A stretch of DNA of 61,081 bases, filler included, from Nemertoderma westbladi (taxonomy: Eukaryota > Animalia > Xenacoelomorpha), in the NCBI GenBank assembly GCA_032718475.1. It is 3 parts of 3 records of this genome, joined end to end, with 100 filler letters (N's around TTAATTAATTAA, not from the genome) between each part and the next. Parts side by side here need not be neighbours in the genome. Positions count along the whole stretch, not along the records: positions 28,668 to 51,237 come from JAUCBJ010008000.1; 2 more parts are not named here. One strand, written 5' to 3'. Position numbers and translations under genes: made by a program. This document shows, piece after piece, positions 19,501 to 51,886 of the stretch. The notes under the pieces are model-generated. The model was not told the origin of the DNA, did not search any database, and saw nothing but the letters and a program-made list of their open reading frames with translations. The first letter of the stretch is position 1. Each line of letters begins with the position of its first letter.

Positions 19501-22500
19501 CGTAGTTAAAGACAGAAACTCAAAAGACTTTATTTAGTCTGTGGGTTTCATGCATGAAACCAAACTATTTTTGACATCAGAAATTTTCAAAAAACAAGCA
19601 ATTGGGCTCTTTTTGGTGATCAAAAACCTAAAAACCTAGTTTTGGGCTTTTTTAAAATTTTAGGTTTTTGACAAAAATCGACAAAAACCTAGATTTACAA
19701 AAACCTACTTTGCCAGCCCTGGGTGAACAGTAGATTTTGTGAAATAAAATTACCTTTTACATTAAAAAACTAATATCGTAAACCTTTATGATCTCAAGAA
19801 AGAATGTAATTAAATTATACGGTCAGCGAGTAAAAAGTCTTAATTAGTTATTAAAGCAACGGCTATAGATTCTTGTTAAAAATGTATGTAAAGTCACGCT
19901 GTGTGAAGTGGGAGTTTTATAGGGGGCGGCTTCTACATACAATAATGTAAGGGCCTTCCTTTGGTTATAATAGTTCGTTAGGATCTAAGGTTTAGGCATG
20001 TTCAACATGCCATACCAATTGACAAGGAAGGGTTTTTGATAGAAGTTAAAGATGTTCACCACGGCACACAAAATGAGTCACCTTATTTGGTATTGAAGTA
20101 GCGCTGGGTTTGGGGAATGTATGTGATTCCATTAAAAGCGGAATGAGGGCCGTTTAAATTCAATAGACGGAGGTATTCAATGATTCAATGACTCATTTAC
20201 GGACCTGCCTTAATACTTATAGTCTTGGGGATTAAATATTTAATTTAATTTGTAATAACGGCCGTTCGATAGGAGATTAGATGAGACGCTCTATGACTAT
20301 GAACAATAAAATGTCGGCCCAAATATTTCCTCCTCAGTAAAACCGAGTAAAAGAGATAATTGTATAAATTACATATCATAATTAATAATATCAACTGGTA
20401 TTTATAATTCACTCACCTCCTTTGATTATCGACAATATTATTAGCCTCATCATTTACACCTGTGTGGGTGGATTCCTATAAATGTCGCAGAAATAATTTA
20501 ATGTTTAATATATATAAATATATAACAATCTATTTACATATTACATATAAACACTTTTCAGCGTGTATGACCCTTGCTTGTATATTTATGTAAACGTCCA
20601 ACGTCCCTCGCGTGATACTTTTCACGCATTGATGTAAATAATTATACTATTGCCACACGGTTGTAAACACGCCTACACCTTCATTATACAGGTACGTGTA
20701 GGTATAGGCGTAGGTGTAGGTATAGGTTTAGGCGTAGGTGTAGGTATAGGCGTAGGTGTAGGTTTAGCGTCATAACACACCTTGAAATTCGTACTTTTAT
20801 TCGAAACTTGAAACATTACTTAATATATGTAAAGGTACTACTGAAGCTAATACTAAACGAAGTATTCTAGAAAGTGATTTTATAACAAGGTGTTCTAGAA
20901 AGTGATTTTATAACAAGGTGTTCTAGAAAGTGATTTTATAACGAGATGTTCTAGAAAGTGATTTTATAACGAAGTATTCTAGAAAGTGATTTTATAACGA
21001 AGTATTCTAGAAAGTGATTTTATAACAAGGTGTTCTAGAAAGTGATTTTATAACGAGATATTCTAGAAAGTGATTTTATAACGAGATGTTCTAGAAACAG
21101 ATTACCTGGTTGTTTGCCGGAGAGTTATTTGTGATTTCTGCGTCTCCACCAGTTGTATCGGCGCCACAAGGGGGAGATTCACTCCTCGCAACTTCGTTGC
21201 CAGAAACCAGGTTGAGAGGCGCGTCTTTAGGCATCGACCCTAGTCTGCGGAGACGACGTCTATTTGGTTTCGAACCCGTTTTCTCAACATTATTTTTGGG
21301 GGAACCAAAAGAGCGATCCTCAACCATTAATACATGTTGTGTCTACGGATCAACAATTATAATCACTATAATAATTGAAAAATCTTAAACAAATAATATT
21401 TCTTAAAAGTTTTATATAATAAATTGATAACAAGTTCATGCCTACGACACGATATGATGCTAGGCCTACTCCACGTGTTACGCAAAGTCCTTACAAACAT
21501 TGAAGGATGTTGAACTTTTGAGCCTTTGTAAATATAATTGATACATTAACATAGCACCCCATGTATATATTGCTGTACAATACAAACATGTGCGCAGTCG
21601 AGAACAAATATTACTGAATAAGAGAGTAAACAGGGCGACTGGGTCGTGCGACTTCTTCACAATATGGGGCAATCTAAATAGACAGTCGTGATTGTCAGCC
21701 ACTTTGTGGTCTTTCATGAACACACAAGCAGATAAAATGTCAATAGTGTGAAAATGTGAAATGGTGGTATCGGAAACGCAATAAATCGTTAAGGAGTTTA
21801 ACTCTGTTAATCACACACCCTTCAACAAATGGCTTTATACAATATTATTTGATTCAGAGATAAGCAGCAAACTAACAAACTTCACCAGCCTAGCCTACCA
21901 ACCAACCCCGGCTATAATCACACCAGCTAACCTCACAATCTGTCGATATTTCTGTCTCCACACAGATAACTTCGGTCAGGGCAGCGGTGTTAGTCGATAC
22001 GGTGGAGTCATTGACGGAGCCTTTGGAAAAAGTAAATAAAAATGTTTATTATTATATTTAATCAATAATATAAATATGGCAGAAATGCGGGGGCGGGGCA
22101 CCCAGCACAATACGGTAGGCTGGCTTCCTGGCTTAGATCTGAGACATGTGTGATGGACTCTACCAACGAAACCACAAGATGTGTAGGGTAGGTCCTATCG
22201 CGATAACCTGACACATCATAAATAAAATATATATAAAAAATAATCGATATCGATATGACCTTGTCCCAAAGGACCTGCCAGTTAAGTGAGAGGGATGTGG
22301 ATGGAGGCCCATTCTCCACATCCCACATTCTGATTTACAAGTCTGGCGGTCTGGTGACCAACCGCCAGCCAATCTGATGCCGCCGGGGACCTATCAATAG
22401 CTGACGCAGGGATAATGGATATCGCGTTAATCAACGGCGCTGCATCACCTTGTATGTAAAAACCATCCGCTCTACCAAGTGAAACATCGAGGAGAGGGGC

Positions 22501-24768
22501 CGCCTAAATGGGCGACACCATCAGAAGTTTGCGGAGGTTGTCCTGGTGGTGGCTGGTATGTCCAGATGACTAGATTCAAATTATCAATCCTCAGTAGTGT
22601 CCGGGGTGGCCGGCGCCCTTGGAGAGATTTTGGGTTTTGGCAATGGTGCTGGTTTGCGTAGCAAAATTCAATTTCAATAATTATTTATTGATCAAAAACT
22701 CACGATACATTTTAGATAGATAAAATATAGTAATTTATTACAAGAATATTAATAATTTATCGGTCAATACGCAATACCCGACCCAAAAATACCGTAAAAC
22801 TAACAATACCCGACCCAAAAATACCGTAAAACTAACAATACCACAGCGCACAGAACAAGTGGACTAACCGCACGTTTGTGCCAGTATAGTAAATGTGACA
22901 GTAGAACAAGTGTTTACGCAGCACTCATGTGCATGTACTGTTGTAGCACAAGTGCCCCGCCCCCAGCAAAAGTGTACCCACAAGCACAGCACAATTGTAA
23001 GAGGGTCACAAATGTGCCCGAAGAACAAGTGTGTCCACTCCACAAGTGATCCGCATTGCAAGTGTGGCAATAAGACGAGTATTCCACAGGACAAGTTTGC
23101 CAAAATCACAAATGTGCCTCCAGCAGAAGTGTGCAACCCGCTCAAGTATGTCCTTCGCACAATTTTGCCCATAGAGAATTGTTCGAAGCACGAGTGTAAC
23201 TTTGCGACAGCGCAGCGGTCGCCTTTTTCCCATGACCAATAAATTATAATTTAGGTTAGATTGGCCAACGTCTAACCTTTGCAAAGTATAGATTTCCATA
23301 ATATTATTTATTACCTGACTCTGGTGTTTCCTGATTATCACATTTTACACGACTTTCTTCGGATTCTCTTAGCTCTCTGAGTCTGTTTTCGGATTTTCGT
23401 AACTTTAGCGCCGCTGTTCTAAAGTCTCGTCTTGTTCTCTGAAGATCCTTTTCCAGCTCCCTATTAACATATAATGGGAAATAATTAATGTATGAACCTC
23501 TCTAACTTTAGATGTATTTCTTAGTCTGTAAGAGTCCTTCCTATAAGGTATCAAGTAGAACATGTTTTACAAATTTCTAAAAAATACTGAATTCATCTAT
23601 TGAAAAGTAACATATTAAACTAAATTCCATATTTGTAGGCTGAGTATCTACGAATCTATAGTCATAGAGGTCTGACACCAAATATATATATCTGCGTGAT
23701 ACACCGAAGGTATAGATTTTTTTCTGAAAATTTGTTCTGACTGTAGAAAGTGAACCAGATCACTAGGTTTTACTTAGGTCCAATGGCCCAAATACGCATT
23801 GCCTGTTGTCAAAACCCTGAAAATTTGTCGCGACCTTCGATGGTGCCTCAGAATTAAATTATCGGTCATTTTTAAAACGTTCTAAGCTTTTGTCTACTAA
23901 AACGCATAAGAAATTTATACAGAGCCGTTGCAAGATACCGAACGTCGGAGGCGGATGGGTAGGCAGAAAGTGCTCCCATCACAGATCACATATATCGACC
24001 CATACTACGCCACTAGGATGCAAAACAGTAAATCCCAAATTCTACTGCATTATTATGTTTCATCACACCGACCGGCTACCGTAGGGGTGGCCGTCATGCC
24101 TGCAGTGCTACGGGGTAGAGCTGTTTTTTCACAAGAAGATGTTTCCGAGGCTGTATATAAATCGCATCTCAAGTGGTAATTATATCAAATAGCGTTCTAA
24201 GCGAAAGGTCTGGCATTAGAGCCCCAGAAAGGGAAGGTCCTGTTTTCGTTAAGCTGTTAACTCTAAGCAAGGCGATCTGTAAGAAACTAGCTTCAGACCA
24301 CCCAGCTGTTATGGGGACCTGGCATAGGCTGTGGAGTTTAATGTTACAGATAACAGCCAGGAGAGAGGAAGGATAATTGGGTTTATATAATTGGGATAAT
24401 TGTGATTCGGAATTTGGTTAGTTTCACGTTCACCAATATATATTAATAATACCAAATAACTTCGCTTTTATTTTTATTGGCCTATTAAATTATACGGAAT
24501 TGCATCTACTTTACTTATTTTCCAGTTTGTACCGATGTAGTCCTACTTCTATCTATGAACTAGCTTTCAGTTACCTGTATTGGTTTTCGTCATTCTCTCT
24601 GAATCTATTTTCTGTCTCCAACAAAAGTGTTTTTAAATCCTTCACCTGAGATCTCAGTTTAATGTTCTCACCATTGCAACATTCTAATCGTTCGGTAAGA
24701 GTTTGTATTTCCCGCGCGTTTGGGTCTTTATCCCCATTGGGTGAATGACATTCATCACCCCCTCCCAT
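4537..24768 (-). CDS. Large coiled-coil protein (~984 aa), ~14 coding exons; family not recognised
   Basis: Manually assembled, phase-consistent GT-AG exon chain on the minus strand: 24768-24575, 23460-23315, 22020-21932, 21342-21106, 20475-20417, 18153-17276, 16701-16526, 8776-8592, 7753-7633, 7291-7172, 6990-6790 (less sure), 6442-6251, 5442-5243 and 4693-4537. Much of it is E/K/L/R-rich heptad sequence. The 3' end is uncertain: a donor at 4585 could instead join 4212-4045. Confidence 0.7.
5480..5780 (+). mobile_element. Pao/BEL LTR-retrotransposon pol fragment (RNase H region)
   Basis: Translates [10 protein letters not shown]...[12 protein letters not shown]...FVTNRVAII...[18 protein letters not shown], matching the BEL/Pao motifs IPRLEL, WTDS, FVxNRV and NPADxxSRG. 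Intronic and antisense to the host gene. Confidence 0.9.
5996..6122. repeat. (CCGGCT)n hexamer microsatellite
   Basis: Direct reading; source of the PAPAPA/RSRS/GAGA ORFs. Confidence 0.9.
10846..14503 (+). mobile_element. CACTG-ended (CMC/EnSpm-like) non-autonomous DNA transposon, 3658 bp
   Basis: TIRs CACTGAAAAAA / TTTTTTCAGTG. Removing the element and one TA restores the satellite unit aaacacTAgacattgg, so the TSD is 2-bp TA. Many subterminal AAAAGT(A/G)C motifs and a ~190-bp direct duplication (13811/14001). No transposase ORF seen. Confidence 0.88.
11684..13012 (+). pseudogene. Transposon-borne decayed gene: double zinc ribbon - helical middle region - acidic linker - PWWP domain
   Basis: ATG 11684 gives MSRCCG...FSFCPHSG...[23 protein letters not shown] (stop at 11804), in frame with ORF 11846-12487. 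There is a frameshift near 12460-12480 and a stop at 12538. It then reads [17 protein letters not shown] and, after a frameshift near 12790, [28 protein letters not shown]...FAAALENIE, which are PWWP hallmarks. Confidence 0.75.
19091..19293. repeat. 14-bp minisatellite (cagcagacaaccga)n
   Basis: Direct reading, ~14 degenerate copies. Confidence 0.9.
20690..20766. repeat. (TAGGYR)n hexamer microsatellite
   Basis: gtaggtataggcgtaggtgtaggt... Confidence 0.85.
20858..21097. repeat. 28-bp tandem repeat, ~8.5 copies, starting ~8 nt inside the intron after the donor at 21105
   Basis: Unit ttctagaaagtgattttataacaaggtg, period 28 (20865, 20893 ... 21089). Confidence 0.95.
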
Positions 24769-25084
24769 CGGCTAATTAAGTTATTTTGCGATTAAACATA
24801 ATTTATAACAATTTTAAAAATTATCAGAAACTATTTATAACGTTATTAATATTACTCACTGCATATAATATGCAGATGCACTGGCACTGTAGTTTTATAA
24901 TTACAGAATGCTAATTCGCCTTCCAACCTTAATTAATAGCCATCCCATTTCCAACTTTGATATGAATAGTCTATCCAAACTGACATTGGAAGAGAAAGAT
25001 AAATATAATCCTAAATCGATCCTAATTATGGCTATCGATTGGGGTCACTACAAAACAAAGACCAAAGACCCAAATAATAAAGAC

Positions 25085-28567: not shown

Positions 28568-28667
28568 NNNNNNNNNNNNNNNNNNNNNNNNNNNNNNNNN
28601 NNNNNNNNNNNTTAATTAATTAANNNNNNNNNNNNNNNNNNNNNNNNNNNNNNNNNNNNNNNNNNNN
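28568..28667. other. Artificial assembly linker (44N + TTAATTAATTAA + 44N)
   Basis: Exactly 100 nt with a six-frame-stop core; an identical linker is at 51238. Confidence 0.97.
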
Positions 28668-28696
28668 CTAGATATTTTTTTTATTTTGTTCTCAAG

Positions 28697-31600
28697 GGTT
28701 TGATGATTTCGATGTTGATACAGTTCCTATTGTAATAGCCAATAGTAGTGACTCGAACTCCCTGGTCGCCATGGCGAAAAAGTCTCGTATAATAATCAAC
28801 TGCGTGGGTCCATTCCGTCACCACGGTGAACCGGTTGTGGAGGCATGCGTGGACTACCACTGTCATTACGTTGATATTAGTGGTGAACCCGAGTTTATGG
28901 AGAGAATGGAATGGAAGTACAATAGGTTGGTATTTATAGAGCTCGGAAGTACAATAGGTTGGTATTTATAGAGCTCGGAAGTACAATAGGTTGGTATTTA
29001 TAGAGCTCGAGAAGTACAATAGGTTGGTATTTATAAAGCTCGGAAGTACAATAGGTTGGTATTTATAGAGCTCGGAAGTACAATAGGTTGGTATTTATAG
29101 AGCTCGGAAGTACAATAGGTTGGTATTTATAGAGCTCGGAAGTACAATAGGTTGGTATTTATAGAGCTCGGAAGTACAATAGGTTGGTATTTATAGAGCT
29201 CGGAAGTACAATAGGTTGGTATTTATAGAGCTCGGAAGTACAATAGGTTGGTATTTATAGAGCTCGGAAGTACAATAGGTTGGTATTTATAGAGCTCGGA
29301 AGTACAATAGGTTGGTATTTATAGAGCTCGGAAGTACAATAGGTTGGTATTTATAGAGCTCGGAAGTACAATAGGTTGGTATTTATAAAGCTCGGAAGTA
29401 CAATAGGTTGGTATTTATAGAGCTCGGAAGTACAATAGGTTGGTATTTATAGAGCTCGGAAGTACAATAGGTTGGTATTTATAGAGCTCGGAAGTACAAT
29501 AGGTTGGTATTTATAGAGCTCGGAAGTACAATAGGTTGGTATTTATAGAGCTCGGAAGTACAATAGGTTGGTATTTATAGAGCTCGGAAGTACAATAGGT
29601 TGGTATTTATAGAGCTCGGAAGTACAATAGGTTGGTATTTATAGAGCTCGGAAGTACAATAGGTTGGTATTTATAGAGCTCGGAAGTACAATAGGTTGGT
29701 ATTTATAGAGCTCGGAAGTACAATAGGTTGGTATTTATAGAGCTCGGAAGTACAATAGGTTGGTATTTATAGAGCTCGGAAGTACAATAGGTTGGTATTT
29801 ATAGAGCTCGGAAGTACAATAGGTTGGTATTTATAGAGCTCGGAAGTACAATAGGTTGGTATTTATAGAGCTCGGAAGTACAATAGGTTGGTATTTATAG
29901 AGCTCGGAAGTACAATAGGTTGGTATTTATAGAGCTCGGAAGTACAATAGGTTGGTATTTATAGAGCTCGGAAGTACAATAGGTTGGTATTTATAGAGCT
30001 CGGAAGTACAATAGGTTGGTATTTATAGAGCTCGGAAGTACAATAGGTTGGTATTTATAGAGCTCGGAAGTACAATAGGTTGGTATTTATAGAGCTCGGA
30101 AGTACAATAGGTTGGTATTTATAGAGCTCGGAAGTACAATAGGTTGGTATTTATAGAGCTCGGAAGTACAATAGGTTGGTATTTATAGAGCTCGGAAGTA
30201 CAATAGGTTGGTATTTATAGAGCTCGGAAGTACAATAGGTTGGTATTTATAGAGCTCGGAAGTACAATAGGTTGGTATTTATAGAGCTCGGAAGTACAAT
30301 AGGTTGGTATTTATAGAGCTCGGAAGTACAATAGGTTGGTATTTATAGAGCTCGGAAGTACAATAGGTTGGTATTTATAGAGCTCGGAAGTACAATAGGT
30401 TGGTATTTATAGAGCTCGGAAGTACAATAGGTTGGTATTTATAGAGCTCGGAAGTACAATAGGTTGGTATTTATAGAGCTCGGAAGTACAATAGGTTGGT
30501 ATTTATAGAGCTCGGAAGTACAATAGGTTGGTATTTATAGAGCTCGGAAGTACAATAGGTTGGTATTTATAGAGCTCGGAAGTACAATAGGTTGGTATTT
30601 ATAGAGCTCGGAAGTACAATAGGTTGGTATTTATAGAGCTCGGAAGTACAATAGGTTGGTATTTATAGAGCTCGGAAGTACAATAGGTTGGTATTTATAG
30701 AGCTCGAATGAAGTACAATAGGTTGGTATTTATAGAGCTCGGAAGTACAATAGGTTGGTATTTATAGAGCTCGGAAGTACAATAGGTTGGTATTTATAGA
30801 GCTCGAATGAAGTACAATAGGTTGGTATTTATAGAGCTCGGAAGTACAATAGGTTGGTATTTATAGAGCTCGGAAGTACAATAGGTTGGTATTTATAGAG
30901 CTCGGAAGTACAATAGGTTGGTATTTATAGAGCTCGGAAGTACAATAGGTTGGTATTTATAGAGCTCGGAAGTACAATAGGTTGGTATTTATAGAGCTCG
31001 GAAGTACAATAGGTTGGTATTTATAGAGCTCGGAAGTACAATAGGTTGGTATTTATAGAGCTCGGAAGTACAATAGGTTGGTATTTATAGAGCTCGGAAG
31101 TACAATAGGTTGGTATTTATAGAGCTCGGAAGTACAATAGGTTGGTATTTATAGAGCTCGGAAGTACAATAGGTTGGTATTTATAGAGCTCGGAAGTACA
31201 ATAGGTTGGTATTTATAGAGCTCGGAAGTACAATAGGTTGGTATTTATAGAGCTCGGAAGTACAATAGGTTGGTATTTATAGAGCTCGGAAGTACAATAG
31301 GTTGGTATTTATAGAGCTCGGAAGTACAATAGGTTGGTATTTATAGAGCTCGGAAGTACAATAGGTTGGTATTTATAGAGCTCGGAAGTACAATAGGTTG
31401 GTATTTATAGAGCTCGGAAGTACAATAGGTTGGTATTTATAGAGCTCGGAAGTACAATAGGTTGGTATTTATAGAGCTCGGAAGTACAATAGGTTGGTAT
31501 TTATAGAGCTCGGAAGTACAATAGGTTGGTATTTATAGAGCTCGGAAGTACAATAGGTTGGTATTTATAGAGCTCGGAAGTACAATAGGTTGGTATTTAT

Positions 31601-34600
31601 AGAGCTCGGAAGTACAATAGGTTGGTATTTATAGAGCTCGGAAGTACAATAGGTTGGTATTTATAGAGCTCGGAAGTACAATAGGTTGGTATTTATAGAG
31701 CTCGGAAGTACAATAGGTTGGTATTTATAGAGCTCGGAAGTACAATAGGTTGGTATTTATAGAGCTCGGAAGTACAATAGGTTGGTATTTATAGAGCTCG
31801 GAAGTACAATAGGTTGGTATTTATAGAGCTCGGAAGTACAATAGGTTGGTATTTATAGAGCTCGGAAGTACAATAGGTTGGTATTTATAGAGCTCGGAAG
31901 TACAATAGGTTGGTATTTATAGAGCTCGGAAGTACAATAGGTTGGTATTTATAGAGCTCGAATGGAAGTACAATAGGTTGGTATTTATAGAGCTCGGAAG
32001 TACAATAGGTTGGTATTTATAGAGCTCGGAAGTACAATAGGTTGGTATTTATAGAGCTCGGAAGTACAATAGGTTGGTATTTATAGAGCTCGGAAGTACA
32101 ATAGGTTGGTATTTATAGAGCTCGGAAGTACAATAGGTTGGTATTTATAGAGCTCGGAAGTACAATAGGTTGGTATTTATAGAGCTCGGAAGTACAATAG
32201 GTTGGTATTTATAGAGCTCGGAAGTACAATAGGTTGGTATTTATAGAGCTCGGAAGTACAATAGGTTGGTATTTATAGAGCTCGGAAGTACAATAGGTTG
32301 GTATTTATAGAGCTCGGAAGTACAATAGGTTGGTATTTATAGAGCTCGGAAGTACAATAGGTTGGTATTTATAGAGCTCGGAAGTACAATAGGTTGGTAT
32401 TTATAGAGCTCGGAAGTACAATAGGTTGGTATTTATAGAGCTCGGAAGTACAATAGGTTGGTATTTATAGAGCTCGGAAGTACAATAGGTTGGTATTTAT
32501 AGAGCTCGGAAGTACAATAGGTTGGTATTTATAGAGCTCGGAAGTACAATAGGTTGGTATTTATAGAGCTCGGAAGTACAATAGGTTGGTATTTATAGAG
32601 CTCGGAAGTACAATAGGTTGGTATTTATAGAGCTCGGAAGTACAATAGGTTGGTATTTATAGAGCTCGGAAGTACAATAGGTTGGTATTTATAGAGCTCG
32701 GAAGTACAACGGGTTGGTATTTATAGAGCTCGGAAGTACAATGGGTTGGTATTTATAGAGCTCGGAAGTACAATAGGATGGTATTTATAGAGCTCGGAAG
32801 TACAATAGGTTGGTATTTATAGAGCTCGGAAGTACAATAGGTTGGTATTTATAGAGCTCGAATGGAAGTACATTATGTTGGTATTTATAGAGCTCGGAAG
32901 TACAATAGGTTGGTATTTATAGAGCTCGCAAGTACAATAGGTTGGTATTTATAGAGCTCGGAAGTACAATAGGTTGGTATTTATAGAGCTCAAATGGAAG
33001 TACATTATGTTGGTATTTATAGAGCTCGGAAGTACAATAGGTTGGTATTTATAGAGCTCGCAAGTACAATAGGTTGGTATTTATAGAGCTCGGAAGTACA
33101 ATAGGTTGGTATTTATAAAGCTCGGAAGTACAATAGGTTGGTATTTATAGAGCTCGGAAGTACAATAGGTTGGTATTTATAGAGCTCGGAAGTACAATAG
33201 GTTGGTATTTATAGAGCTCGAATGGAAGTACATTATGTTGGTATTTATAGAGCTCGGAAGTACAATAGGTTGGTATTTATAGAGCTCGGAAGTACAATAG
33301 GTTGGTATTTATAGAGCTCGGAAGTACAATAGGTTGGTATTTATAGAGCTCGGAAGTACAATAGGTTGGTATTTATAGAGCTCGAATGGAAGTACATTAT
33401 GTTGGTATTTATAGAGCTCGGAAGTACAATAGGTTGGTATTTATAGAGCTCGGAAGTACAATAGGTTGGTATTTATAGAGCTCGGAAGTACAATAGGTTG
33501 GTATTTATAGAGCTCGGAAGTACAATAGGTTGGTATTTATAGAGCTCGGAAGTACAATAGGTTGGTATTTATAAAGCTCGGAAGTACAATAGGTTGGTAT
33601 TTATAGAGCTCGGAAGTACAATAGGTTGGTATTTATAGAGCTCGGAAGTACAATAGGTTGGTATTTATAGAGCTCGGAAGTACAATAGGTTGGTATTTAT
33701 AAAGCTCGGAAGTACAATAGGTTGGTATTTATAGAGCTCGGAAGTACAATAGGTTGGTATTTATAAAGCTCGGAAGTACAATAGGTTGGTATTTATAAAG
33801 CTCGGAAGTACAATAGGTTGGTATTTATAGAGCTCGGAAGTACAATAGGTTGGTATTTATAAAGCTCGGAAGTACAATAGGTTGGTATTTATAGAGCTCG
33901 GAAAGTACAATAGGTTGGTATTTATAGAGCTCGGAAGTACAATAGGTTGGTATTTATAGAGCTCGGAAGTACAATAGGTTGGTATTTATAGAGCTCGGAA
34001 GTACAATAGGTTGGTCATTTATATAGCTCGGAAGTACATTATGTTGGTATTTATAGAGCTCGGAAGTACAATAGGTTGGTATTTATAGAGCTCGGAAGTA
34101 CAATAGGTTGGTATTTATAAAGCTCGGAAGTACAATAGGTTGGTATTTATAGAGCTCGGAAGTACAATAGGTTGGTATTTATAGAGCTCGGAAGTACAAT
34201 AGGTTGGTATTTATAAAGCTCGGAAGTACAATAGGTTGGTATTTATAGAGCTCGGAAGTACAATAGGTTGGTATTTATAGAGCTCGGAAGTACAATAGGT
34301 TGGTATTTATAGAGCTCGGAAGTACAATAGGTTGGTATTTATAGAGCTCGGAAGTACAATAGGTTGGTATTTAAGAGCTCGGAAGTACAATGGGTTGGTA
34401 TTTATAGAGCTCGGAAGTACAATAGGTTGGTATTTATAGAGCTCGGAAGTACAATGGGTTGGTATTTATAGAGCTCGGAAGTACAATAGGTTGGTATTTA
34501 TAGAGCTCGGAAGTACAATGGGTTGGTATTTATAGAGCTCGGAAGTACAATGGGTTGGTATTTATAGAGCTCGGAAGTACAATAGGATGGTATTTATAGA

Positions 34601-37600
34601 GCTCGGAAGTACAATGGGTTGGTATTTATAGAGCTCGGAAGTACAATGGGTTGGTATTTATAGAGCTCGGAAGTACAATGGGTTGGTATTTATAGAGCTC
34701 GGAAGTACAATGGGTTGGTATTTATAGAGCTCGGAAGTACAATAGGTTGGTATTTATAGAGCTCGGAAGTACAATAGGTTGGTATTTATAGAGCTCGGAA
34801 GTACAATAGGTTGGTATTTATAGAGCTCGGAAGTACAATGGGTTGGTATTTATAGAGCTCGGAAGTACAATAGGTTGGTATTTATAGAGCTCGAAAGTAC
34901 AATGGGTTGGTATTTATAGAGCTCGGAAGTACAATGGGTTGGTATTTATAGAGCTCGGAAGTACAATGGGTTGGTATTTATAGAGCTCGGAAGTACAATA
35001 GGTTGGTATTTATAGAGCTCGAATGGAAGTACAATAGGTTGGTATTTATAGAGCTCGGAAGTACAATAGGTTGGTATTTATAGAGCTCGGAAGTACAATG
35101 GGTTGGTATTTATAGAGCTCGGAAGTACAATAGGTTGGTATTTATAGAGCTCGAATGGAAGTACAATAGGTTGGTATTTATAGAGCTCGAATGGAAGTAC
35201 AATAGGTTGGTATTTATAGAGCTCGGAAGTACAATAGGTTGGTATTTATATAGCTCGGAAGTACAATAGGTTGTATGCTGTTCCTCCACTTTTTGTTTAT
35301 AAGAATGTAATCCAGCTGTGCTCTTGCTACATTTAGGGTATTGAAAGGTCCACAGCTTATTCATTCCCCTTACTCTTTTCGAATGTGGTGTTTGTTGGTA
35401 TCAATTTACATTCTTCCATTAGGTCAGGTCTAAGAGTATAATCACCGACTTCTGTCCGAACTGGTGTTATACTATAGGTGTAGCCCTTGGTGTCACATCC
35501 AACAATGACTTTAACATTGTGTTTCGGAATGTCCTTTATAAGTCCAGTCAGTTCTTCATAAAACTTGACTGCTTGTTCTGGCTCTGAGGCATTGGTTGGA
35601 CTGTAGCAACATATAACTGTTGCCTTAGGATTTCCATCAAATGTTGCAATCATAACCCTAAAATTTATAGTCGATTCTGTTTAGGGTCTGAAGTGCTAAT
35701 GGGCTATATCTTCTGCATCGTATGAACTCAAAAGAGAAGAATGGAAGTTCAATAGGTTTTTGTTCTTTTTGTGGAATTTCTGGAGCTACTTAAATAAATA
35801 TGTCAGTGAAATTGAATAAGGAAATAATATAATATTCTAGAATAGGGATGTCCCGGAATTCCGTTCCGGCCGGAATTCCGGCGGTTTTTGCCCGATTCCG
35901 GTTCCAGCCGGAATTGCCGGAATGGGGTCAATTCCGGCCGGAATTTTACCGGAATTGCTAAGTTCCTATCTAGTTTGATAGTTGCACATTTTGCACGTTG
36001 ATATGTAACATATTTCCAAAAACATTCCACCTGGTAATCAAACTAAAATGGTCCCACCATCTGTAACACCACTTAAGTAGTATTCATATACAATTCACAA
36101 TAACCATCATAATTTACATTAACTAATGAAATGCATCAATATGCCCGTGCCCCACTGGTCAGAATGTCAAAATGAATGCCTCATTGCTCCATAGGTAACA
36201 CAAGTCATGAGTCATTTGATAAAAAATATAAGATGCATCTCACATTTACTGCATATTTATACCCAAAGTAACCAATCACAGGCCTCTTGCCGGATATAAC
36301 ATAACACATGAGTCATGTGTCAAAAGATGGAACATGGGACATAATCACTTTCGTCTCCTTGGTCGTAACTTACGATTTACCAGTGGAGACGCTCCCATTG
36401 AAACCAACGTGTTCCATAATTTATTCTGACTAAGACTTTCTAAGACTTACCAGTGGAGCACGGGCCTTAAATAGTGGTTTTTTCAATTTGCTTTTTACAA
36501 TTTGTTTATAAAATGGCGTTTTTAGATTGATCTTACACTATTTTACATTGATTTTATATTATTTTATATTAATTATTAAATAATATGATAATATTATGAT
36601 GGGTATTATCTCGTCCAACGTAACATATAGAATGACCCCTAAAGATTTGCAGCTTATTTCCATGCGGGTCCTTTATGTTACTTGGTTACAAATACAATAT
36701 TACACAAATACAATTACTACTCTAACTTAAAACTAATATAAAACGTTATTACAATACGTACAGGTCTTGCGTCGTAGGTGCTTCATAATATAGTAGTTTT
36801 GTTTCTATTTACAGCAAATCCATTTCTTACCATAAATCTATTTATTCCCAGCAATAATTAAACTGTAACATGTGATGTACTATTGGCCTCTTTTATTGTT
36901 TTGGTTCAAATAACATGTCACTGTAACATGCTCCTTTCCCTTAAAGACACCAGGATATTGCACCAAAGGACCTACCTAATGACGCGAAACCATAGGTTTT
37001 TGTTTAACGTAGGTTTTTAGGAGTCTAAATGCTAATAACCTAACTTTTGGCCAAAGTTATAGATTTTAGAAAAATTTTTATTGAATTCCCTGTCGTTCAA
37101 TGCCGAAGTACCATCCCGTCCCCTTAACGACCCAGGCCATTCTCCACTCCACCCACTTTAATTCCCCCCAAGGTTCTGATTCCTTTCATTATCAAACTTA
37201 GCTGTTCTGTAGAAATTAAAAAAAATCATTTGTTTCACACAAAATTGTAAAGTTTCATGGGTCATTTAGTGTATTTCACTAATTATAGAAAATTCCGGTT
37301 CCGGCCGGAATTCCGGCCGGAATATTCCGGCATGTTGAATTCCGGTTCCGGTTCCGGCCGGAATCAAAATATCGATTCCGGGACATCCCTATTCTAGAAC
37401 ATTGCTCTACTTTTTTTTATTGTTGGTATTCTTATTATTATTATTATTTTTCCGTTTTTTTTTAGTCGCGCTAGTGATAATGGCGTTTATATCGTCTCCG
37501 CCTGCGGATTCGACTCGATTCCCGCTGAGATGGGAGTGGTTCATCTCAAGAAGGCATTCAGTGATGCTGACAGCACTCTCACTGGAGTAGAGAGTTACAT

Positions 37601-40600
37601 GTCATTTATATCCGGATCTTCAGGGTTCACAGTAAGTATGAATTTACTTTATTATTAAATTATATATTACCGTAAAATTTTACTAATAATAATTATTTTT
37701 TGCTGATAAGGAAGTGAAATCGAGAGCATATTGAAAATATGTTACACGTTATTTAACAGAAATATTGTACCATATTGTACCATATTGTACCATATTGTAC
37801 CATATTGTACCATATTGTACCATATTGTACCATATTGTACCATATTGTACCATATTGTACCATATTGTACCATATTGTACCATATTGTACCATATTGTAC
37901 CATATTGTACCATATTGTACCATATTGTACCATATTGTACCATATTGTACCATATTGTACCATATTGTACCATATTGTACCATATTGTACCATATTGTAC
38001 CATATTGTACCATATTGTACCATATTGTACCATATTGTACCATATTGTACCATATTGTACCATATTGTACCATATTGTACCATATTGTACCATATTGTAC
38101 CATATTGTACCATATTGTACCATATTGTACCATATTGTACCATATTGTACCATATTGTACCATATTGTACCATATTGTACCATATTGTACCATATTGTAC
38201 CATATTGTACCATATTGTACCATATTGTACCATATTGTACCATATTGTACCATATTGTACCATATTGTACCATATTGTACCATATTGTACCATATTGTAC
38301 CATATTGTACCATATTGTACCATATTGTACCATATTGTACCATATTGTACCATATTGTACCATATTGTACCATATTGTACCATATTGTACCATATTGTAC
38401 CATATTGTACCATATTGTACCATATTGTACCATATTGTACCATATTGCCGGCCAGCATCTATCAATAATATTTGTATCCCAATGAAAAACCAATATTCAT
38501 ACCGTATTAACTCGAATAAGAGTCTGGGCGTTTAAGTTTATATATAAATTGCCAATTGGGAAGGCGTTTATTCGGGAAGGCGTTTATTCGGGGAAGGCGT
38601 TTATTCGGGGAAGGCGTTTATTCGGGGAGGGCGTTTATTCGGGGAAGGCGTTTATTCGGGGAAGGCGTTTATTCGGGGAAGGCGTTTATTCGGGGAAGGC
38701 GTTTATTCGGGGAAGGCGTTTATTCGGGGAAGGCGTTTATTCGAGGGGGGCATTTATTCGGGGAAGGCGTTTATTCGGGGAAGGCGTTTATTCGGGGAAG
38801 GCGTTTATTCGGGGAAGGCGTTTATTCGGGGAAGGCGTTTATTCGGGGAAGGCGTTTATTCGGGGAAGGCGTTTATTCGGGGAAGGCGTTTATTCGGGGA
38901 AGGCGTTTATTCGGGGAAGGCGTTTATTCGGGGAAGGCGTTTATTCGGGGAAGGCGTTTATTCGGGGAAGGCGTTTATTCGGGGAAGGCGTTTATTCGAG
39001 GGGGGCATTTATTCGGGGAAGGCGTTTATTCGGGGAAGGCGTTTATTCGGGGAAGGCGTTTATTCGGGGAAGGCGTTTATTCGGGGAAGGCGTTTATTCG
39101 GGGAAGGCGTTTATTCGAGGGGGGCATTTATTCGGGGAAGGCGTTTATTCGGGGAAGGCGTTTATTCGGGGAAGGCGTTTATTCGGGGAAGGCGTTTATT
39201 CGGGGAAGGCGTTTATTCGGGGAAGGCGTTTATTCGGGGAAGGCGTTTATTCGGGGAAGGCGTTTATTCGGGGAAGGCGTTTATTCGGGGAAGGCGTTTA
39301 TTCGGGGAAGGCGTTTATTCGGGGAAGGCGTTTATTCGGGGAAGGCGTTTATTCGGGGAGGGCGTTTATTCGGGGAAGGCGTTTATTCGGGGAAGGCGTT
39401 TATTCGGGGAAGGCGTTTATTCGGGGAAGGCGTTTATTCGGGGAAGGCGTTTATTCGAGGGGGGCATTTATTCGGGGAAGGCGTTTATTCGGGGAAGGCG
39501 TTTATTCGGGGAAGGCGTTTATTCGGGGAAGGCGTTTATTCGGGGAAGGCGTTTATTCGGGGAAGGCGTTTATTCGGGGAAGGCGTTTATTCGGGGAAGG
39601 CGTTTATTCGGGGAAGGCGTTTATTCGGGGAAGGCGTTTATTCGGGGAAGGCGTTTATTCGGGGAAGGCGTTTATTCGGGGAAGGCGTTTATTCGGGGAA
39701 GGCGTTTATTCGAGGGGGGCATTTATTCGGGGAAGGCGTTTATTCGGGGAAGGCGTTTATTCGGGGAAGGCGTTTATTCGGGGAAGGCGTTTATTCGGGG
39801 AAGGCGTTTATTCGGGGAAGGCGTTTATTCGAGGGGGGCATTTATTCGGGGAAGGCGTTTATTCGGGGAAGGCGTTTATTCGGGGAAGGCGTTTATTCGG
39901 GGAAGGCGTTTATTCGGGGAAGGCGTTTATTCGGGGAAGGCGTTTATTCGGGGAAGGCGTTTATTCGGGGAAGGCGTTTATTCGGGGAAGGCGTTTATTC
40001 GGGGAAGGCGTTTATTCGGGGAAGGCGTTTATTCGGGGAAGGCGTTTATTCGGGGAAGGCGTTTATTCGGGGAAGGCGTTTATTCGGGGAAGGCGTTTAT
40101 TCGAGGGGGGCATTTATTCGGGGAAGGCGTTTATTCGGGGAAGGCGTTTATTCGGGGAAGGCGTTTATTCGGGGAAGGCGTTTATTCGGGGAAGGCGTTT
40201 ATTCGGGGAAGGCGTTTATTCGAGGGGGGCATTTATTCGGGGAAGACGTTTAAGTTCCAAATTGTGTGGTTCGAGTGGGGGTGTTTGTTTATGTTTTAGA
40301 TTTTCAGCATTTTGAATCTAAATACCCTAATAAAGAATGTTGTTAAATTCAAGAAAACAAGTTAAACAAAATAAATAATTCAAATAAAACTAGGAATATC
40401 TTTATTACACATATTACCGCGGTACAACACCCTAAAATTATATTTACTTCAATTTGGCCTTATATATTAATGACAATCGTGTGCTAGAGGCATCGCTCAC
40501 TAATCGTGGCTCGCCCCACATAGTAATATTATTAAATGTCGGGACGTTTATTCGGCCGGAGGAGTTTAAGTTGCTAATTTGATGGTAAAGTGGGCGTTTA

Positions 40601-42183
40601 GTCGAAGAACTACGGAGTAATATATTGATAAAATTAAATTATTCTTCTTGTTTACCTATTCACTTATAATTAATTGAAACTTTATTTGCATTCGTTTATC
40701 CTAATTGATTTGGCAATAATAATAATTGTATTTACAGGCTAACCAAGGAACCTGGCAGACTATAATCGAATCTCTAGCGAACGCAAACGAGTTGTCTAGA
40801 CTGCGACGCGCGATCGGTCGCAAAGAGATCCCGTACAGCCAATTCGGCCCCCCGAAACGCGGTTCGGTGTTCCGTAACCCGGTCGACAACGGCATCTCGG
40901 TACCCTTCCAGGGTGCCGACTCCAGCGTGGTACGACGCAGTCAGCTGGCCCTCTACAACCTGTACAACGAACACCCCACCCGGTTCAACCCATACTTCAC
41001 CGTCGGTAGTCTCTTCTCCGCATTCCTTCTGGTTGTATTCGGTTCCCTGTTTCTCCTCCTCACGAAGTTTATCTTCGGTCGATATCTTCTCTCCTCCTAC
41101 CCGGAGTTTTTCTCCGGAGGTTTCTTCTCTAAACGCGGTCCGACTCTCAAACAGATTCGCGAAACTTCATTCTCCATGGTGTTTAAAGGTACGTGACTTA
41201 TTGGAGTTTCAGTTTTAATATCGGTATTTATCATCACTTCAACTTGATTGCACCCATACGGCCATCACTATCGGCATCACCATCACATCTGTAGACTAGT
41301 CTAGGAAACGACCTGCCAAAATCCGATGTGGTTTTGGTAAATTTTTATCGATTTAAAAAAAAACAGACAACACAAAGACTACATGTCCATCATGTTGTTG
41401 GGGTAACAGTTGGTTCTTTTTTGGATAACTATTCTCATTGTTTTTAATTTTTTAATTCTCTGGCATTCTCGAGTCTGACTAAAGACGACGACGCCGACGA
41501 CCTATTACTTTGGTAACCCAAAATATTTAAACGGGCTGACTTTTATAAAAAAAACATGGTATACATGACACAGCGGTTAAAATGAAAATGTTCGTAAAGA
41601 TTCTCGGTAAAAATCTATTAGTTAAAAGTTTAGTATAAATGCATGTTGCAGCAAGTAAAATATATGTGTGAGTTAATAGAATTGATATTTAATCTAAATA
41701 AAATTCCTAAAACAATGAAATAAAACTGCAATGATGCTGTATGAGAGTCGTCAATGTTACGTTGGACGCGTAACATTGACGACCAGTAGGAAACTCATTT
41801 AAACTCAATTTAACTCAAAACCAATTCTTATTGAAATTGTAAATACGATTTTTCGGGCCGTTTTTATAATTTAATAATAAATACCGATTAGTTTTTACTT
41901 TATAATTTGTATCTATCTGATTGTCATGGTTACAGGCGAAGGCTACCCGCGTGGTGCGTCAATGGACCAATCGAGACCGAGCAAGCAGCTAACCAGCCGT
42001 GTCATTGGCCCGGAGCCTGGCTACGCGACCACCCCCATTTGCGCCGTCCAATCGGCGCTGTGCGTGTTAGAAGAGTCGTTGCCAGGTAACGGCGGAGTTA
42101 TTACTACCGCCGCCGCTTTTAGTCGCACAAATCTGATAGAAAGGCTCTCCAGTAGGGGAATAAACTTCGTTCTAGAACAGTGA
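28697..42183 (+). CDS. SCCPDH: Saccharopine dehydrogenase-like oxidoreductase, 5'-partial (~363 aa seen), 4 exons
   Basis: Exons 28697-28925, 37466-37631, 40738-41188 and 41936-42183 splice in frame (phases 2, 0, 1). Motifs IINCVGPFRHHGEPVVEACV, HYVDISGEPEFME, VYIVSACGFDSIPAEMG, FFSKRGPT, GPEPGY and GGVITTAAAF. The N-terminal GASGFTG exon is absent and presumably lies beyond the gap. Confidence 0.92.
28913..35273. repeat. 32-bp satellite, ~198 near-identical copies; unit = last 13 nt of a SCCPDH exon + first 19 nt of the intron
   Basis: Unit ggaagtacaatag|gttggtatttatagagctc. The first copy straddles the real donor at 28925/28926. Occasional 36-bp units add gaat. Confidence 0.98.
35274..35780 (-). 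mobile_element. RTE-type LINE fragment, APE endonuclease region
   Basis: IATFDGNPKATVICCYSPTNAS...FYEELTGLIKDIPKHNVKVIVG...LIPTNTTF...KLWTFQYP, frameshifted. Confidence 0.85.
35843..37391. mobile_element. hAT-family non-autonomous element, 1549 bp
   Basis: Perfect 17-bp TIR TAGGGATGTCCCGGAAT / ATTCCGGGACATCCCTA, 8-bp TSD TTCTAGAA (35835-35842, 37392-37399) and subterminal CCGGAAT repeats. Confidence 0.93.
37762..38447. repeat. 10-bp perfect tandem repeat (catattgtac)n, ~68 copies
   Basis: Direct reading; lies in a SCCPDH intron. Confidence 0.98.
38500..40620. mobile_element. Tc1/mariner-like MITE with an internally expanded 17-bp array
   Basis: Begins TACCGTATTAACTCGAATAAG and the right end is degenerate (gtttagtcgaagaactacggag). 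The sequence on both sides of the array matches the reverse complement of the short copy at 58445-58622. Superfamily is inferred from TA-flanked CCGTA ends only. Confidence 0.7.
38557..40252. repeat. 17-bp satellite (ggggaaggcgtttattc)n, ~100 copies, with periodic gaggggggcatttattc variants
   Basis: Direct reading; produces the spurious 588-aa and 565-aa ORFs. Confidence 0.98.
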
Positions 42184-43354: not shown

Positions 43355-44151
43355 GGTGGAAGCGTTTACTGTGGAAGATCACCCTTGGTGGTGAACAGGT
43401 ATTCCTTTGGGAAACAGAGTGGAAGGGTTTACTGTGGAAGATCACCCATGGTGGTGAACAGGCATTCCTTTAGGAAACATAGCGGAAGGGTTTACTGTGG
43501 AAGATCACCCATGGTGGTGAACATGTATTCATTTAGGTAACAGAGTGGAAGGGTTTACTGTAGAAGAAGATCACCCATGGCCATGGTGGTGAACAGGCTT
43601 TCATTTAGAGAACAGAGTGGAAGGGTTTACTGTGGAAGATCACCCATGGTGGTGAACAAGATTTCCATTAGGAAACAGAGTGGAGGGGTTTAGTGGAAGA
43701 TCACCCATGGTGATGAACAGGCATTCCTTTAGGAAATAGATTGGAAGAGTTTACTGTAGAAGAAGATCACCCATAGTGGTGAACAGGCATTCATTTAGGA
43801 AACAGAGTGGAAGGGTTTACTGTGGAAGATCACCCATGGTGGTGAACAGGCATTCCTTTAGAGAACAGAGTGGAAGGGTTTACTGTGGAAGATCACCCAT
43901 GGTGGTGAACAAGCTTTCCTTTAGGAAACAGAGTGGAAGGGTTTACTGTGGAAGATCACCCATGGTGGTGAACAGGCATTCCTTTAGGAAACAGAGTGGT
44001 AGGGTTTACTGTGGAAGATCACCCATGGTGGTGAACAAGCTTTCCTTTAGGAAACAGAGTGGAAGGGTTTACTGTGGAAGATCACCCATCCATGGTGGTG
44101 AACAGGCATTCCTTTAGGAAACAGCGTGGAAGGGTTTACTGTGGAAGATCA
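43355..44151. repeat. 63-bp tandem repeat, ~12.5 copies
   Basis: Unit ggaaacagagtggaagggtttactgtggaagatcacccatggtggtgaacaggcattccttta. Confidence 0.95.
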
Positions 44152-44174
44152 CACATGCATATATGAAACACGTT

Positions 44175-46039: not shown

Positions 46040-46860
46040 CATTATAGCGCTAACCCCCCCCCCCCCTCCCCCCCTTTAACTAAAAGATTCTCCCATTCAA
46101 TATAAAATAAATTCTTTCCAACCATTGAGGCGATCGGCTGGTGATTCAGCCTTAACCTTGGTGGTTGGTTGGCTTTTTCGACCAGCAAGCAAGTTGATCG
46201 ATCTCCATGCCTGGGATGATTGCCTGCTGTCGTCAGCATCATTGATGGCATCAACCTGTTAGTTTATTAGCTCCTGTAAATTACCTGAGTACTGCCTGTT
46301 CAGGGACCTAGATGCGGCCTTAACTGCATTCTTGGCCGCTGTAGTCTGTTTGAGTCGGGACTCTTTCTGCGCCTTGTAGAGGTCATTTCGGCACTTCTGA
46401 ATTTTGTTGTCAGTCCAGGGGGCCCGTTTCCTGTTTCGAGGGTATACAGGAACTGTTTCTGCAGCTGCTAACTTAACTGCCTCTGTGAAGGCAGTATAGC
46501 CCTCACAGTGATCTGCCGCCTCAGAGGCAAGAGCCTCATACCTGTTGCTCAGCTGTAGTGTGAAGCTGGATCTCACACTTGGCTGTTGCAACAGAGAGGA
46601 CCAGTCATGCCGCGGCAAGGCAGATTTCGTTGTTCTGCTAGCACGCAGACTAAGTCTTACCTTGGCCACAATAAGGCGGTGATCACTGGAGAAGGGTCGT
46701 AGTGTAAATGCATTACAGTCTTGTATAGAGCTCCTGTATTTCCTACGAAACAGGATATGGTCTATCTGGGACTCGTGACCACTGGGTTCACTATGAGTCC
46801 ATAGCTTTCCAGTTCGCTTCTTGAACTGGGTTCCAGCCGAAAACAATCCATTTCCAGATA
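46040..46860 (-). mobile_element. RTE-type LINE fragment (endonuclease C-terminus and linker)
   Basis: KLWTHSEPSGHESQIDHILFRRKYRSSIQDC...FSSDHRLIVAKVRLSL...LSNRYEAL: APE motifs IDHI and SDH. Confidence 0.9.
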
Positions 46861-47648
46861 TAATAATATTGAATAATAGATAATATAGGTATAATAGATA
46901 ATATTGAAGCCTCAAGTCTTAGTGGTATGTCATTATTGGTACACCAAAATTAGGGCGTGGTTTTTTTCAAAATTTGAATAAGTGCCACTCCCTAATTTTG
47001 GTGCACCAAAAATGTCGAACCACTAAGTCTTCAGGCTTCTATAATACTTTCAATTGATTCAGCGGTCCAGAAAACCTATAAATGTGCGTTGAAATCTCAA
47101 CTTTGGTTTATTTTCCGAATCTCGTGTTTTTCAAAATTTGAAGTGCCACGCCCACTTCTTAGGTGCACGAAAAATAGCATCCAGTTCAATTTTTGGAAAT
47201 GGAATATAATCACATTCGAATCAGCATAGTGAAAAACCTACTAATGCTAGCCAATAATACCACGCTATCAGTTTTTAGAATATCAAAAAAATTTATATTT
47301 TGTCCTGGGACTACTCGTATTTTTCATGAAAATTATTATACCCACGTTATGAAATTTTCATTTTTTTGGATTTTAAAATGTTCTTCGATAATTTTTTCTC
47401 CTACAGCCCAAATTTCGTAGAATTTCATTGGATGATTACAAAAATACAGAGGGGGGGGGGCGAATCGACCCCCCGCCATTGCTGCTAATGGTCTAAACAC
47501 CCCAGTGGTAATAGGGTTAAAATTACGTAACGTCAAAAATCGTTTAAAAAAGCATTACGACCCCTTATCAAAAACTCCCCCACAGCATCGATTGGTTGGA
47601 TAATAAATAGGCCTTCAACAATCCCTGCCGCCGGATTTACCATACTTA

Positions 47649-51237: not shown

Positions 51238-51337
51238 NNNNNNNNNNNNNNNNNNNNNNNNNNNNNNNNNNNNNNNNNNNNTTAATTAATTAANNNNNNN
51301 NNNNNNNNNNNNNNNNNNNNNNNNNNNNNNNNNNNNN
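51238..51337. other. Artificial assembly linker (44N + TTAATTAATTAA + 44N)
   Basis: Same 100-nt structure as 28568-28667. Confidence 0.97.
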
Positions 51338-51578: not shown

Positions 51579-51886
51579 ATCGCAAACATTATTTTTTGAT
51601 TTTACAGATCATATTAAATCAACTTTTCTTACGTTTTAATTGCCTTTTGTGTATTATCGATTAGGTTCCCCCTTATCTGCACTGACAGAACTCAATTACA
51701 CATTCAGCGTTGCAGCATTGTATGTATCTGTGTATTGTTTATAGTACCGGTACCGTAGGCCTACCGATACCTGGAACCTACTGACTTACCAACACTGCCA
51801 ACTGCAGCACTGTAGCCTACCAACACTCATGTAACTTTCACTCCTTCTCTACGCTGTACGGCATTCTGATCTGTCAATACCAATTC

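What the first reader, a model, noticed from the sequence alone, without database searches (positions are those of the whole stretch)
28913..35273. A 6.4-kb satellite made of ~200 copies of the SCCPDH exon/5' splice-site junction
Seen: the 32-bp unit is the last 13 exonic nt (GGAAGTACAATAG) plus the first 19 intronic nt (GTTGGTATTTATAGAGCTC). The real donor is therefore followed by about 200 identical donors with the same upstream context. Only copy 1 keeps the frame into exon 37466: copy 2 adds 32 nt (frameshift) and later copies include the stop at 28969-28971. Inference: the spliceosome must pick the first of ~200 equal donors, or the array works as a U1 sponge, an unproductive-splicing/NMD rheostat, or a chain of TAG|GT recursive-splicing points. 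I know of no standard feature class for this.
Basis: partly seen in the sequence, partly recalled or inferred. Interest (0 to 1): 0.85.

Follow-up and report, generated by a model that had tools for sequence, protein, structure and literature searches.

The report
Splice-donor minisatellite in SCCPDH intron
The end of one exon of an animal's SCCPDH gene, splice signal included, is repeated 198 times in a row into the next intron, yet the one assembled transcript found is cut at the first copy, so this is a large but likely harmless example of a repeat type already known from human genes, lancelets and chicken.

Summary
The array is real: 198 copies of a 32-bp unit (13 exon + 19 intron bases); 174 of the 197 extra copies carry the same 9-base donor. 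Word depth in three DNA records of two samples points to roughly 110-210 copies, which argues against assembly inflation. Only donor 1 keeps the frame. One public run that behaves as RNA (X4) has a single contig, depth about 5000, joining donor 1 straight to exon 37466 with no fork at the donor, although a 0.5% fork upstream was kept. X4's own array genotype is unknown, and nonsense-mediated decay (NMD) could hide leaks. A decayed last copy at 35733-35787, cut off by a LINE-like fragment, marks where the original duplication likely ended; the intron was likely about 150 bases before the array and two insertions. The class is known: human F7 IVS7, IFI6, CBS, LMNB2 and PDGF minisatellites, amphioxus 'mirages', chicken 'exon stuttering'. 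In F7 the most upstream donor wins. What differs is scale: 198 against at most 44 copies in the papers read. The scan has already noted the same thing at many other loci of this genome (up to about 2,100 copies, unchecked). Verdict: new member of a known kind, likely near-neutral.

The parts
28697..28925 (+). SCCPDH-like coding exon whose last 13 bases begin the repeat unit
   Evidence: PF03435 30.5 bits, cut-off 25.1; tblastn; X4 contig covers it at depth 4999 and is joined to an upstream exon that is not in the window
28913..35273 (+). Minisatellite, 198 copies of a 32-bp exon-end/donor unit; 5' half nearly uniform, 3' half carries most variants, including 36-bp forms with 17 exon bases
   Evidence: modal units per quarter 46/49, 46/49, 38/49, 25/50; Fisher p 1.7e-7 for halves; present in DNA runs of samples S1 and S2
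28923..28931 (+). Donor 1 (intron starts 28926), the donor used in the RNA-like run
   Evidence: one X4 contig (301 nt, depth 4999) runs from 28925 directly into exon 37466
28969..28971 (+). In-frame TAG that any mRNA using donor 3 or later would contain
   Evidence: 196 of 198 donors give a 90-codon frame ending here
35274..35732 (-). High-copy, decayed LINE-like fragment (endonuclease-like frame 35360-35680) that separates the array from its last copy; ends approximate
   Evidence: very high summed depth in DNA runs; no Pfam hit; Atlas features 0.95 to unnamed clusters, 0.93 to Exo_endo_phos clusters: likely, not proven
35733..35787 (+). Decayed relic copy of the exon end and intron start (about 25 exon bases, weak donor at 35756, 14-base extra stretch), continuous with the rest of the old intron
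   Evidence: local alignment score 49 against a maximum of 33.5 in 300 shuffles; intronic part 12 of 15, matched in 1 of 291 background windows
35843..37391 (.). Polymorphic DNA-transposon-like insertion with 17-bp terminal inverted repeats and an 8-bp target-site duplication (35835-35842, 37392-37399); hAT-like by TSD length (recalled rule)
   Evidence: empty-site contigs in X2 (depth 26.6) and X1 (depth 19)
37466..37631 (+). Next SCCPDH exon, the acceptor partner of donor 1
   Evidence: X4 loose ends show the upstream exon before it and exon 40738 behind it
40738..41188 (+). Third SCCPDH exon in the contig
   Evidence: tblastn; X4 joint from 37632
41936..42183 (+). Last coding exon, to the stop codon
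   Evidence: tblastn and open frame; its upstream junction was not checked in reads

Best explanation
This is an ordinary minisatellite that likely began as a local tandem duplication of the exon end and intron start, grew to 198 copies, and is likely tolerated because splicing commits to the first donor, the one seen in the assembled transcript. Shown: the unit is local sequence, the array exists in DNA of two samples, only donor 1 keeps the frame, and the assembled RNA-like contig uses donor 1. Inferred: (1) the first duplication covered about 25 exon bases; a LINE-like insertion then cut off its last copy, which decayed, while the rest was shortened (36 to 32 bp) and homogenised by slippage or unequal exchange; (2) donor 1 wins by position, being transcribed first and attached to the full 229-base exon and its acceptor, as in the F7 model; (3) rare use of later donors would be removed by NMD; (4) such arrays show up at exon edges because duplications inside exons would be purged while these survive.
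For: X4 contig joins 28925 to 37466 at depth 4999 with no fork at the donor, while a fork of depth 23.8 at the upstream acceptor was kept; all 3 X4 records laid on 28668-28970 were shown (same contig). Relic copy and insertions explain the history; the intron without array and insertions would be about 153 bases. Variant polarity along the array is what turnover of a tandem array gives. Tandem arrays are common here: 17 arrays of 100 bp or more cover 27% of the window, 18% without this one, and two purely intronic arrays sit in the next intron of the same gene. Donor-weakening variants have spread (14 copies TGG|GT, 5 TAT|GT, 2 GA), so the signal is not strictly kept. Published precedent with mutational proof that the most upstream identical donor is used (PMC1557585) and that mirages do not disturb splicing (PMC3087553).
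Against: The RNA evidence is one contig from one run that the tool labels 'DNA?'; it is read as RNA because it joins exons at three junctions. It comes from sample S3, whose array genotype is unknown. Contigs drop rare forms, and NMD would hide later-donor products. In IFI6 and CBS two pseudo-donors are used besides the real one (PMC1557585, introduction), and an unchecked scan note on GALNS in this genome reports use of an internal copy. Here copy 2 is identical to donor 1, and 174 of 197 copies remain perfect donors. Folding gives donor 1 no advantage: it is predicted less open than donors 2-10 (0.35 against 0.43-0.54).
Confidence: 0.76

Rival explanations
1. Length-dependent leak: a share of transcripts would be cut at donor 2 or later and destroyed by NMD, so array length would set SCCPDH dose.
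For: All 197 later donors lead to a premature stop upstream of at least two further junctions. The modal donor pairs with the U1 5' end as well as the gene's other two donors (-8.3 against -7.5 and -7.2 kcal/mol). IFI6 and CBS use nearby pseudo-donors (PMC1557585, introduction); a CBS VNTR paper in its reference list links the repeat to enzyme activity (title only).
Against: No fork at the donor in the X4 contig although a 0.5% fork was kept upstream. F7 pseudo-sites did not compete even when strengthened (PMC1557585, discussion). If only the nearest copies compete, copy number beyond a few would not matter (inference).
Confidence: 0.12
2. Recursive or stepwise removal: the TAG|GT in each unit would act as a joint acceptor and donor, so the intron would be removed in jumps that leave the same mRNA.
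For: Each modal unit has YAG directly before GT, the motif of recursive and dual-specific sites; a tandem array of such sites is used in human UBC (PMC10809524, abstract). The mature mRNA would look the same, so X4 cannot exclude it.
Against: Upstream of the unit's TAG only 7 of 20 bases are pyrimidines, with 3 competing AGs; the gene's four real acceptors have 17, 17, 12 and 9, with 0-1 AG. The TAG is simply the coding end of the exon, so its presence needs no explanation. One real acceptor is also weak (9 of 20), so this is not decisive.
Confidence: 0.05
3. Microexon bank: each unit also holds an AG 18 bases before the next donor, which would define an in-frame, stop-free 18-base microexon that could be added to the mRNA.
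For: Seen in the sequence: the AG ending at 28971 lies 18 bases before donor 28990; 9 of 20 upstream bases are pyrimidines, equal to the weakest real acceptor.
Against: The X4 contig has no inserted letters at the junction. Homologues align without an insertion at this junction.
Confidence: 0.03
4. U1 sponge: the nascent array would titrate U1 snRNP away from other genes.
For: 174 extra perfect donors per transcript with good predicted U1 pairing.
Against: A few nascent transcripts with 200 sites each are far below the cellular U1 pool (about a million copies in human cells; recalled). No array RNA accumulation was shown.
Confidence: 0.01
5. Assembly artefact: a short array inflated by the assembler.
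For: No read spanning the array was seen; the window is made of pieces joined by linkers.
Against: Unit depth is about 110-210 times single-copy depth in X1 and 160 times in X3. A 4-base-insertion variant appears in X2 at depth 137.5 against 24-27, about 5-6 copies, close to the 8 such units in the window.
Confidence: 0.03

Closest known systems
Human F7 intron 7 (IVS7) 37-bp VNTR, with IFI6 (6-16), CBS intron 13, LMNB2 and PDGF intron 4 minisatellites (PMC1557585: abstract, introduction, passages and whole discussion read; the primary papers on the other four genes not read)
   Same: First unit spans the exon-intron boundary, so identical donors follow the real one; the first donor is the one used (F7, LMNB2, PDGF).
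   Different: 5-25 copies there, 198 here; 13 exon bases in the unit against 4 in F7; an invertebrate-like animal; function of the pseudo-donors was tested by mutation in F7 and not here.
Amphioxus 'mirage' minisatellites: Adh3, globins BflGb6 and BflGb9 (PMC3087553, 8 passages read)
   Same: Tandem copies of an exon-intron boundary, unit 10-160 bp, concerted evolution inside the cluster with divergent boundary copies, regular splicing not disturbed.
   Different: 3-6 units in BflGb6 against 198 here; length instability was shown there, here only suggested by depth.
Chicken 'exon stuttering' on dot chromosomes (bioRxiv 10.1101/2025.09.16.676548, passages read; supplements not seen)
   Same: Local expansion of an exon edge with its splice site into the neighbouring intron, alongside purely intronic expansions in the same genes; span within their range (112-23,555 bp).
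   Different: 1-44 copies detected there (hits of 20 bases or more); GC-rich chromosomes there, 37% GC here.
Recursive and dual-specific splice sites, human UBC tandem array (PMC10809524 abstract; PMC10156609 passages)
   Same: YAG|GT repeated in tandem.
   Different: Poor pyrimidine tract, non-coding array, no intermediate shown.

Membership tests
Exon-intron-junction minisatellite (F7 IVS7 type, mirage, exon stuttering) | Tandem array whose first unit spans an authentic exon-intron boundary | tested here: met
   boundary confirmed by the X4 joint
Exon-intron-junction minisatellite (F7 IVS7 type, mirage, exon stuttering) | Splice signal repeated in the intron | tested here: met
   174 of 197 extra copies identical over -3..+6; 195 keep GT
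Exon-intron-junction minisatellite (F7 IVS7 type, mirage, exon stuttering) | Unit of local origin, not an interspersed element | tested here: met
   unit begins with the exon's own last 13 bases; no exact 20-mer of it elsewhere in the window on either strand; rest of the genome not available
Exon-intron-junction minisatellite (F7 IVS7 type, mirage, exon stuttering) | Normal mRNA made from the authentic site | tested here: met
   one contig of one RNA-like run, from an animal of unknown array genotype
Exon-intron-junction minisatellite (F7 IVS7 type, mirage, exon stuttering) | Copy number varies between alleles (VNTR) | tested here: inconclusive
   depth ratios of about 110-210 (X1) and 160 (X3) are too rough to show different alleles
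Recursive splice sites | YAG immediately followed by GT | tested here: met
   modal unit TAG|GT
Recursive splice sites | Acceptor context (pyrimidine tract, few competing AGs) | tested here: not met
   7 of 20 pyrimidines and 3 AGs, the poorest of the sites compared; the requirement is established knowledge, recalled
Recursive splice sites | Lariats, intermediates or saw-tooth coverage | not testable with these tools
   only assembled contigs were offered
Regulated unproductive splicing coupled to NMD | Alternative event gives a premature stop upstream of a later junction | tested here: met
   in silico for all 197 later donors
Regulated unproductive splicing coupled to NMD | The alternative event occurs and rises when NMD is blocked | not testable with these tools
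   no raw RNA reads and no NMD-inhibited sample

The most novel reading that the evidence does not exclude
The array is a heritable dial on gene dose: a hidden share of transcripts is cut at later donors and destroyed by NMD, rising with copy number, in a lineage that has seeded such giant arrays at many exon edges, so that satellite turnover tunes expression genome-wide without touching any protein.
Probability: 0.1. Interest if true: 0.65.

Novelty: new member of a known kind. Interest (0 to 1): 0.25.

Why it matters
By itself it is one more junction minisatellite. Its value is as a natural test at a scale above the published cases read here (198 against 44 or fewer): if donor 1 is used exclusively even with NMD blocked, donor choice is set by position and exon context and is indifferent to 174 perfect competitors in an invertebrate-like animal. 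The relic copy gives an unusually readable history of how a roughly 150-base intron became 8.5 kb. The larger question belongs to the genome, not this locus: scan notes (unchecked) list many such arrays, up to about 2,100 copies, which would allow a test of whether exon edges are enriched beyond what purifying selection explains.

Tried and rejected
No whole genome is held, so the unit could not be sought at other loci. No RNA holder was listed among 6 runs; X4 is read as RNA only from its exon-to-exon joints. X4 has no cover on the array unit at 28932-28970 or on single-copy intron parts: lack of cover is no evidence, and leaves open whether S3 carries the array. X5 (same sample as X2 and X3) was laid in the hope that it was RNA; 1 record was laid and none on exon 37466, so it says nothing. 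The loose-end table showed 19 rows and hid 199, so a rare second junction at 37466 could be hidden there. Structural masking of later donors was tested on donors 1-10 of 198 and not supported. The LINE-like fragment got no Pfam hit and no alignment to a second decayed frame at 46262-46918; only the Atlas features support it. The upstream exon and upstream intron seen in reads are not in the window (0 matches). Two protein searches found no close relative (best identities 64-65% over one exon; 41% for the neighbouring malonyl-CoA decarboxylase), so no sister species could be compared. Paper searches for a published case with hundreds of copies found none; the library lacks most subscription papers, and the chicken preprint's supplements were not seen. 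PMC3902484, PMC10078293, PMC4238797 and PMC2630376 were seen as search listings only. No earlier scan note lies near this locus.
Full report
Observation. The unit is the last 13 bases of a coding exon and the first 19 bases of its intron. Of 197 extra donors, 174 are identical to the real one over -3..+6 and 195 keep GT. The 5' half is nearly uniform and the 3' half holds most variants (modal units 46/49, 46/49, 38/49, 25/50 by quarter), among them 36-base forms that carry 17 exon bases.

Gene. The exon matches PF03435 and SCCPDH-like proteins. tblastn with 6 of those proteins places four exons at 28697-28925, 37466-37631, 40738-41188 and 41936-42183, which give one open frame of 363 codons when donor 1 is used. 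Donor 2 shifts the frame and stops inside the next exon; all 196 later donors include the TAG at 28969-28971. The window is three pieces joined by 100-base linkers; the gene's piece starts at 28668, and its upstream exon, seen in reads, is not in the window. The organism is likely an invertebrate animal with no close relative in the protein collection (best identity 41% for the neighbouring malonyl-CoA decarboxylase).

Is the array real? Six runs of one organism were listed, none on record as RNA. In DNA runs of two samples the unit forms very deep contigs: 2475-2500 in X1 against 11.9 for the exon contig (19-22 at other single-copy places), and 672 against 4.2 in X3. That gives about 110-210 copies, against 153-161 occurrences of the same words in the window. 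X1 may be the source of the assembly; X2 and X3 are another sample. Contig depth is rough, and other loci with the unit cannot be excluded without a genome, but inflation is unlikely.

Which donor is used? X4 behaves as RNA: its contigs join exon to exon at three places, with depth near 5000 on exons. One 301-base contig runs from 28696 through 28925 directly into exon 37466, and seen from the acceptor side it carries the unique exon sequence upstream of donor 1, not repeat sequence (the same contig). All 3 X4 records laid on 28668-28970 were shown. The assembler kept a fork of depth 23.8 (0.5%) at the upstream acceptor but none at the donor, which suggests that forms reading into the array are rare at steady state (inference; assemblers also remove tips and bubbles). 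Limits: one run, one contig, sample S3 not genotyped for the array, and NMD would hide later-donor products.

History. The 8,540-base intron consists of the array, a high-copy LINE-like fragment (35274-35732; endonuclease-like by Atlas features; no Pfam hit), a decayed copy of the junction (35733-35787; score 49 against at most 33.5 in 300 shuffles), a 1.55-kb element with terminal inverted repeats and an 8-base target-site duplication that is absent from contigs of X1 and X2, and short unique ends. Removing the additions leaves about 153 bases. The relic has about 25 exon bases and a weak donor (-4.0 against -8.3 kcal/mol with the U1 5' end, recalled motif). The likely order is: local duplication of the junction, separation of its last copy by the LINE-like insertion, then shortening and expansion of the remaining copies. 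This order is inferred. Tandem arrays are common in this window (17 arrays of 100 bases or more, 27% of it); 1 of the 7 junctions of this gene in the window has one, and two arrays in the next intron contain no exon sequence.

Mechanism. The best reading is positional choice of the first donor, with NMD as a likely backstop. Folding does not explain it: donor 1 is predicted less open than donors 2-10. The recursive reading has the right motif but the poorest acceptor context of the sites compared, and the TAG is just the exon's coding end. An 18-base in-frame microexon can be drawn in each unit, but the X4 contig has no insertion. A U1 sponge fails on numbers (recalled U1 abundance). A length-dependent leak is not excluded.

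What is known. PMC1557585 (abstract, introduction, passages and discussion read) describes this arrangement in human F7 (37 bp, 5-9 copies) and lists IFI6 (25 pseudo-sites), CBS (15-20), LMNB2 (10-15) and PDGF (16-18). In F7 only the most upstream site is used, and inactivating it moves splicing to the next; in IFI6 and CBS two pseudo-sites are also used. PMC3087553 (passages) calls such repeats 'mirages' in amphioxus and reports regular splicing, length instability and divergent boundary copies. The chicken preprint 10.1101/2025.09.16.676548 (passages) finds 236 introns with exon stuttering, 1-44 copies. PMC10809524 (abstract) shows a used tandem array of dual-specific sites in UBC; PMC10156609 (passages) gives the lariat criteria for recursive sites. 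I found no paper with hundreds of copies, in a library that lacks most subscription journals.

Earlier scan notes (unchecked AI notes, not support). They list the same kind of array in other genomes and at many loci of this genome: 68 of 79 notes fit my words, 8 were shown, with up to about 2,100 copies. They gave me the leads to the amphioxus and chicken papers, which I then read. One note (GALNS) reports use of an internal copy, which I could not test and which keeps the leak reading alive.

Verdict. Observation confirmed; interpretation partly supported; new member of a known kind, large but not the largest even in this genome; interest 0.25.

Noticed in passing
window 35835-37399: A 1.55-kb element with 17-bp terminal inverted repeats and an 8-bp target-site duplication; contigs of X1 and X2 show the empty site, so it is polymorphic and likely recently mobile.
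   Followed up: partly
window 28568-28667 and 51238-51337: Two 100-base linkers (N runs around a 12-base spacer) join unrelated pieces; reads continue differently before 28671, so 1-28567 is not the gene's upstream DNA.
   Followed up: yes
window 37762-38447 and 38558-40252: Two more arrays in the next SCCPDH intron: a 10-mer, 68.6 copies at 100% identity, and a G-rich 17-mer, about 100 copies; neither includes exon sequence.
   Followed up: partly
window 20856-21097: A 28-bp array ends about 10 bases from what looks like a minus-strand donor near 21107 of an unannotated multi-exon gene (frames at 17268-18167, 21106-21345, 23316-23460, 24575-24770 by eye); it may be another exon-edge expansion that stops short of the signal.
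   Followed up: no
window 8840-10845 and 14504-16523: Two 2-kb arrays of the same 36-38-bp family, 3.7 kb apart, each flanked on one side by similar sequence rich in AAAAGT words; possibly satellite carried inside a transposon.
   Followed up: no
window 51785-52894 and 54902-56383: Long single frames: a KH plus AKAP7-type 2H domain protein (ASCC1-like architecture, name recalled) and a malonyl-CoA decarboxylase, each apparently with most of its coding sequence in one exon.
   Followed up: partly
run X4 on window 28671-28725: The intron upstream of exon 28697 is retained in a contig of depth 23.8 against 4638 for the spliced form.
   Followed up: no
window 43356-44157: A 63-bp array (12.5 copies) 1.2 kb downstream of the SCCPDH stop codon.
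   Followed up: no
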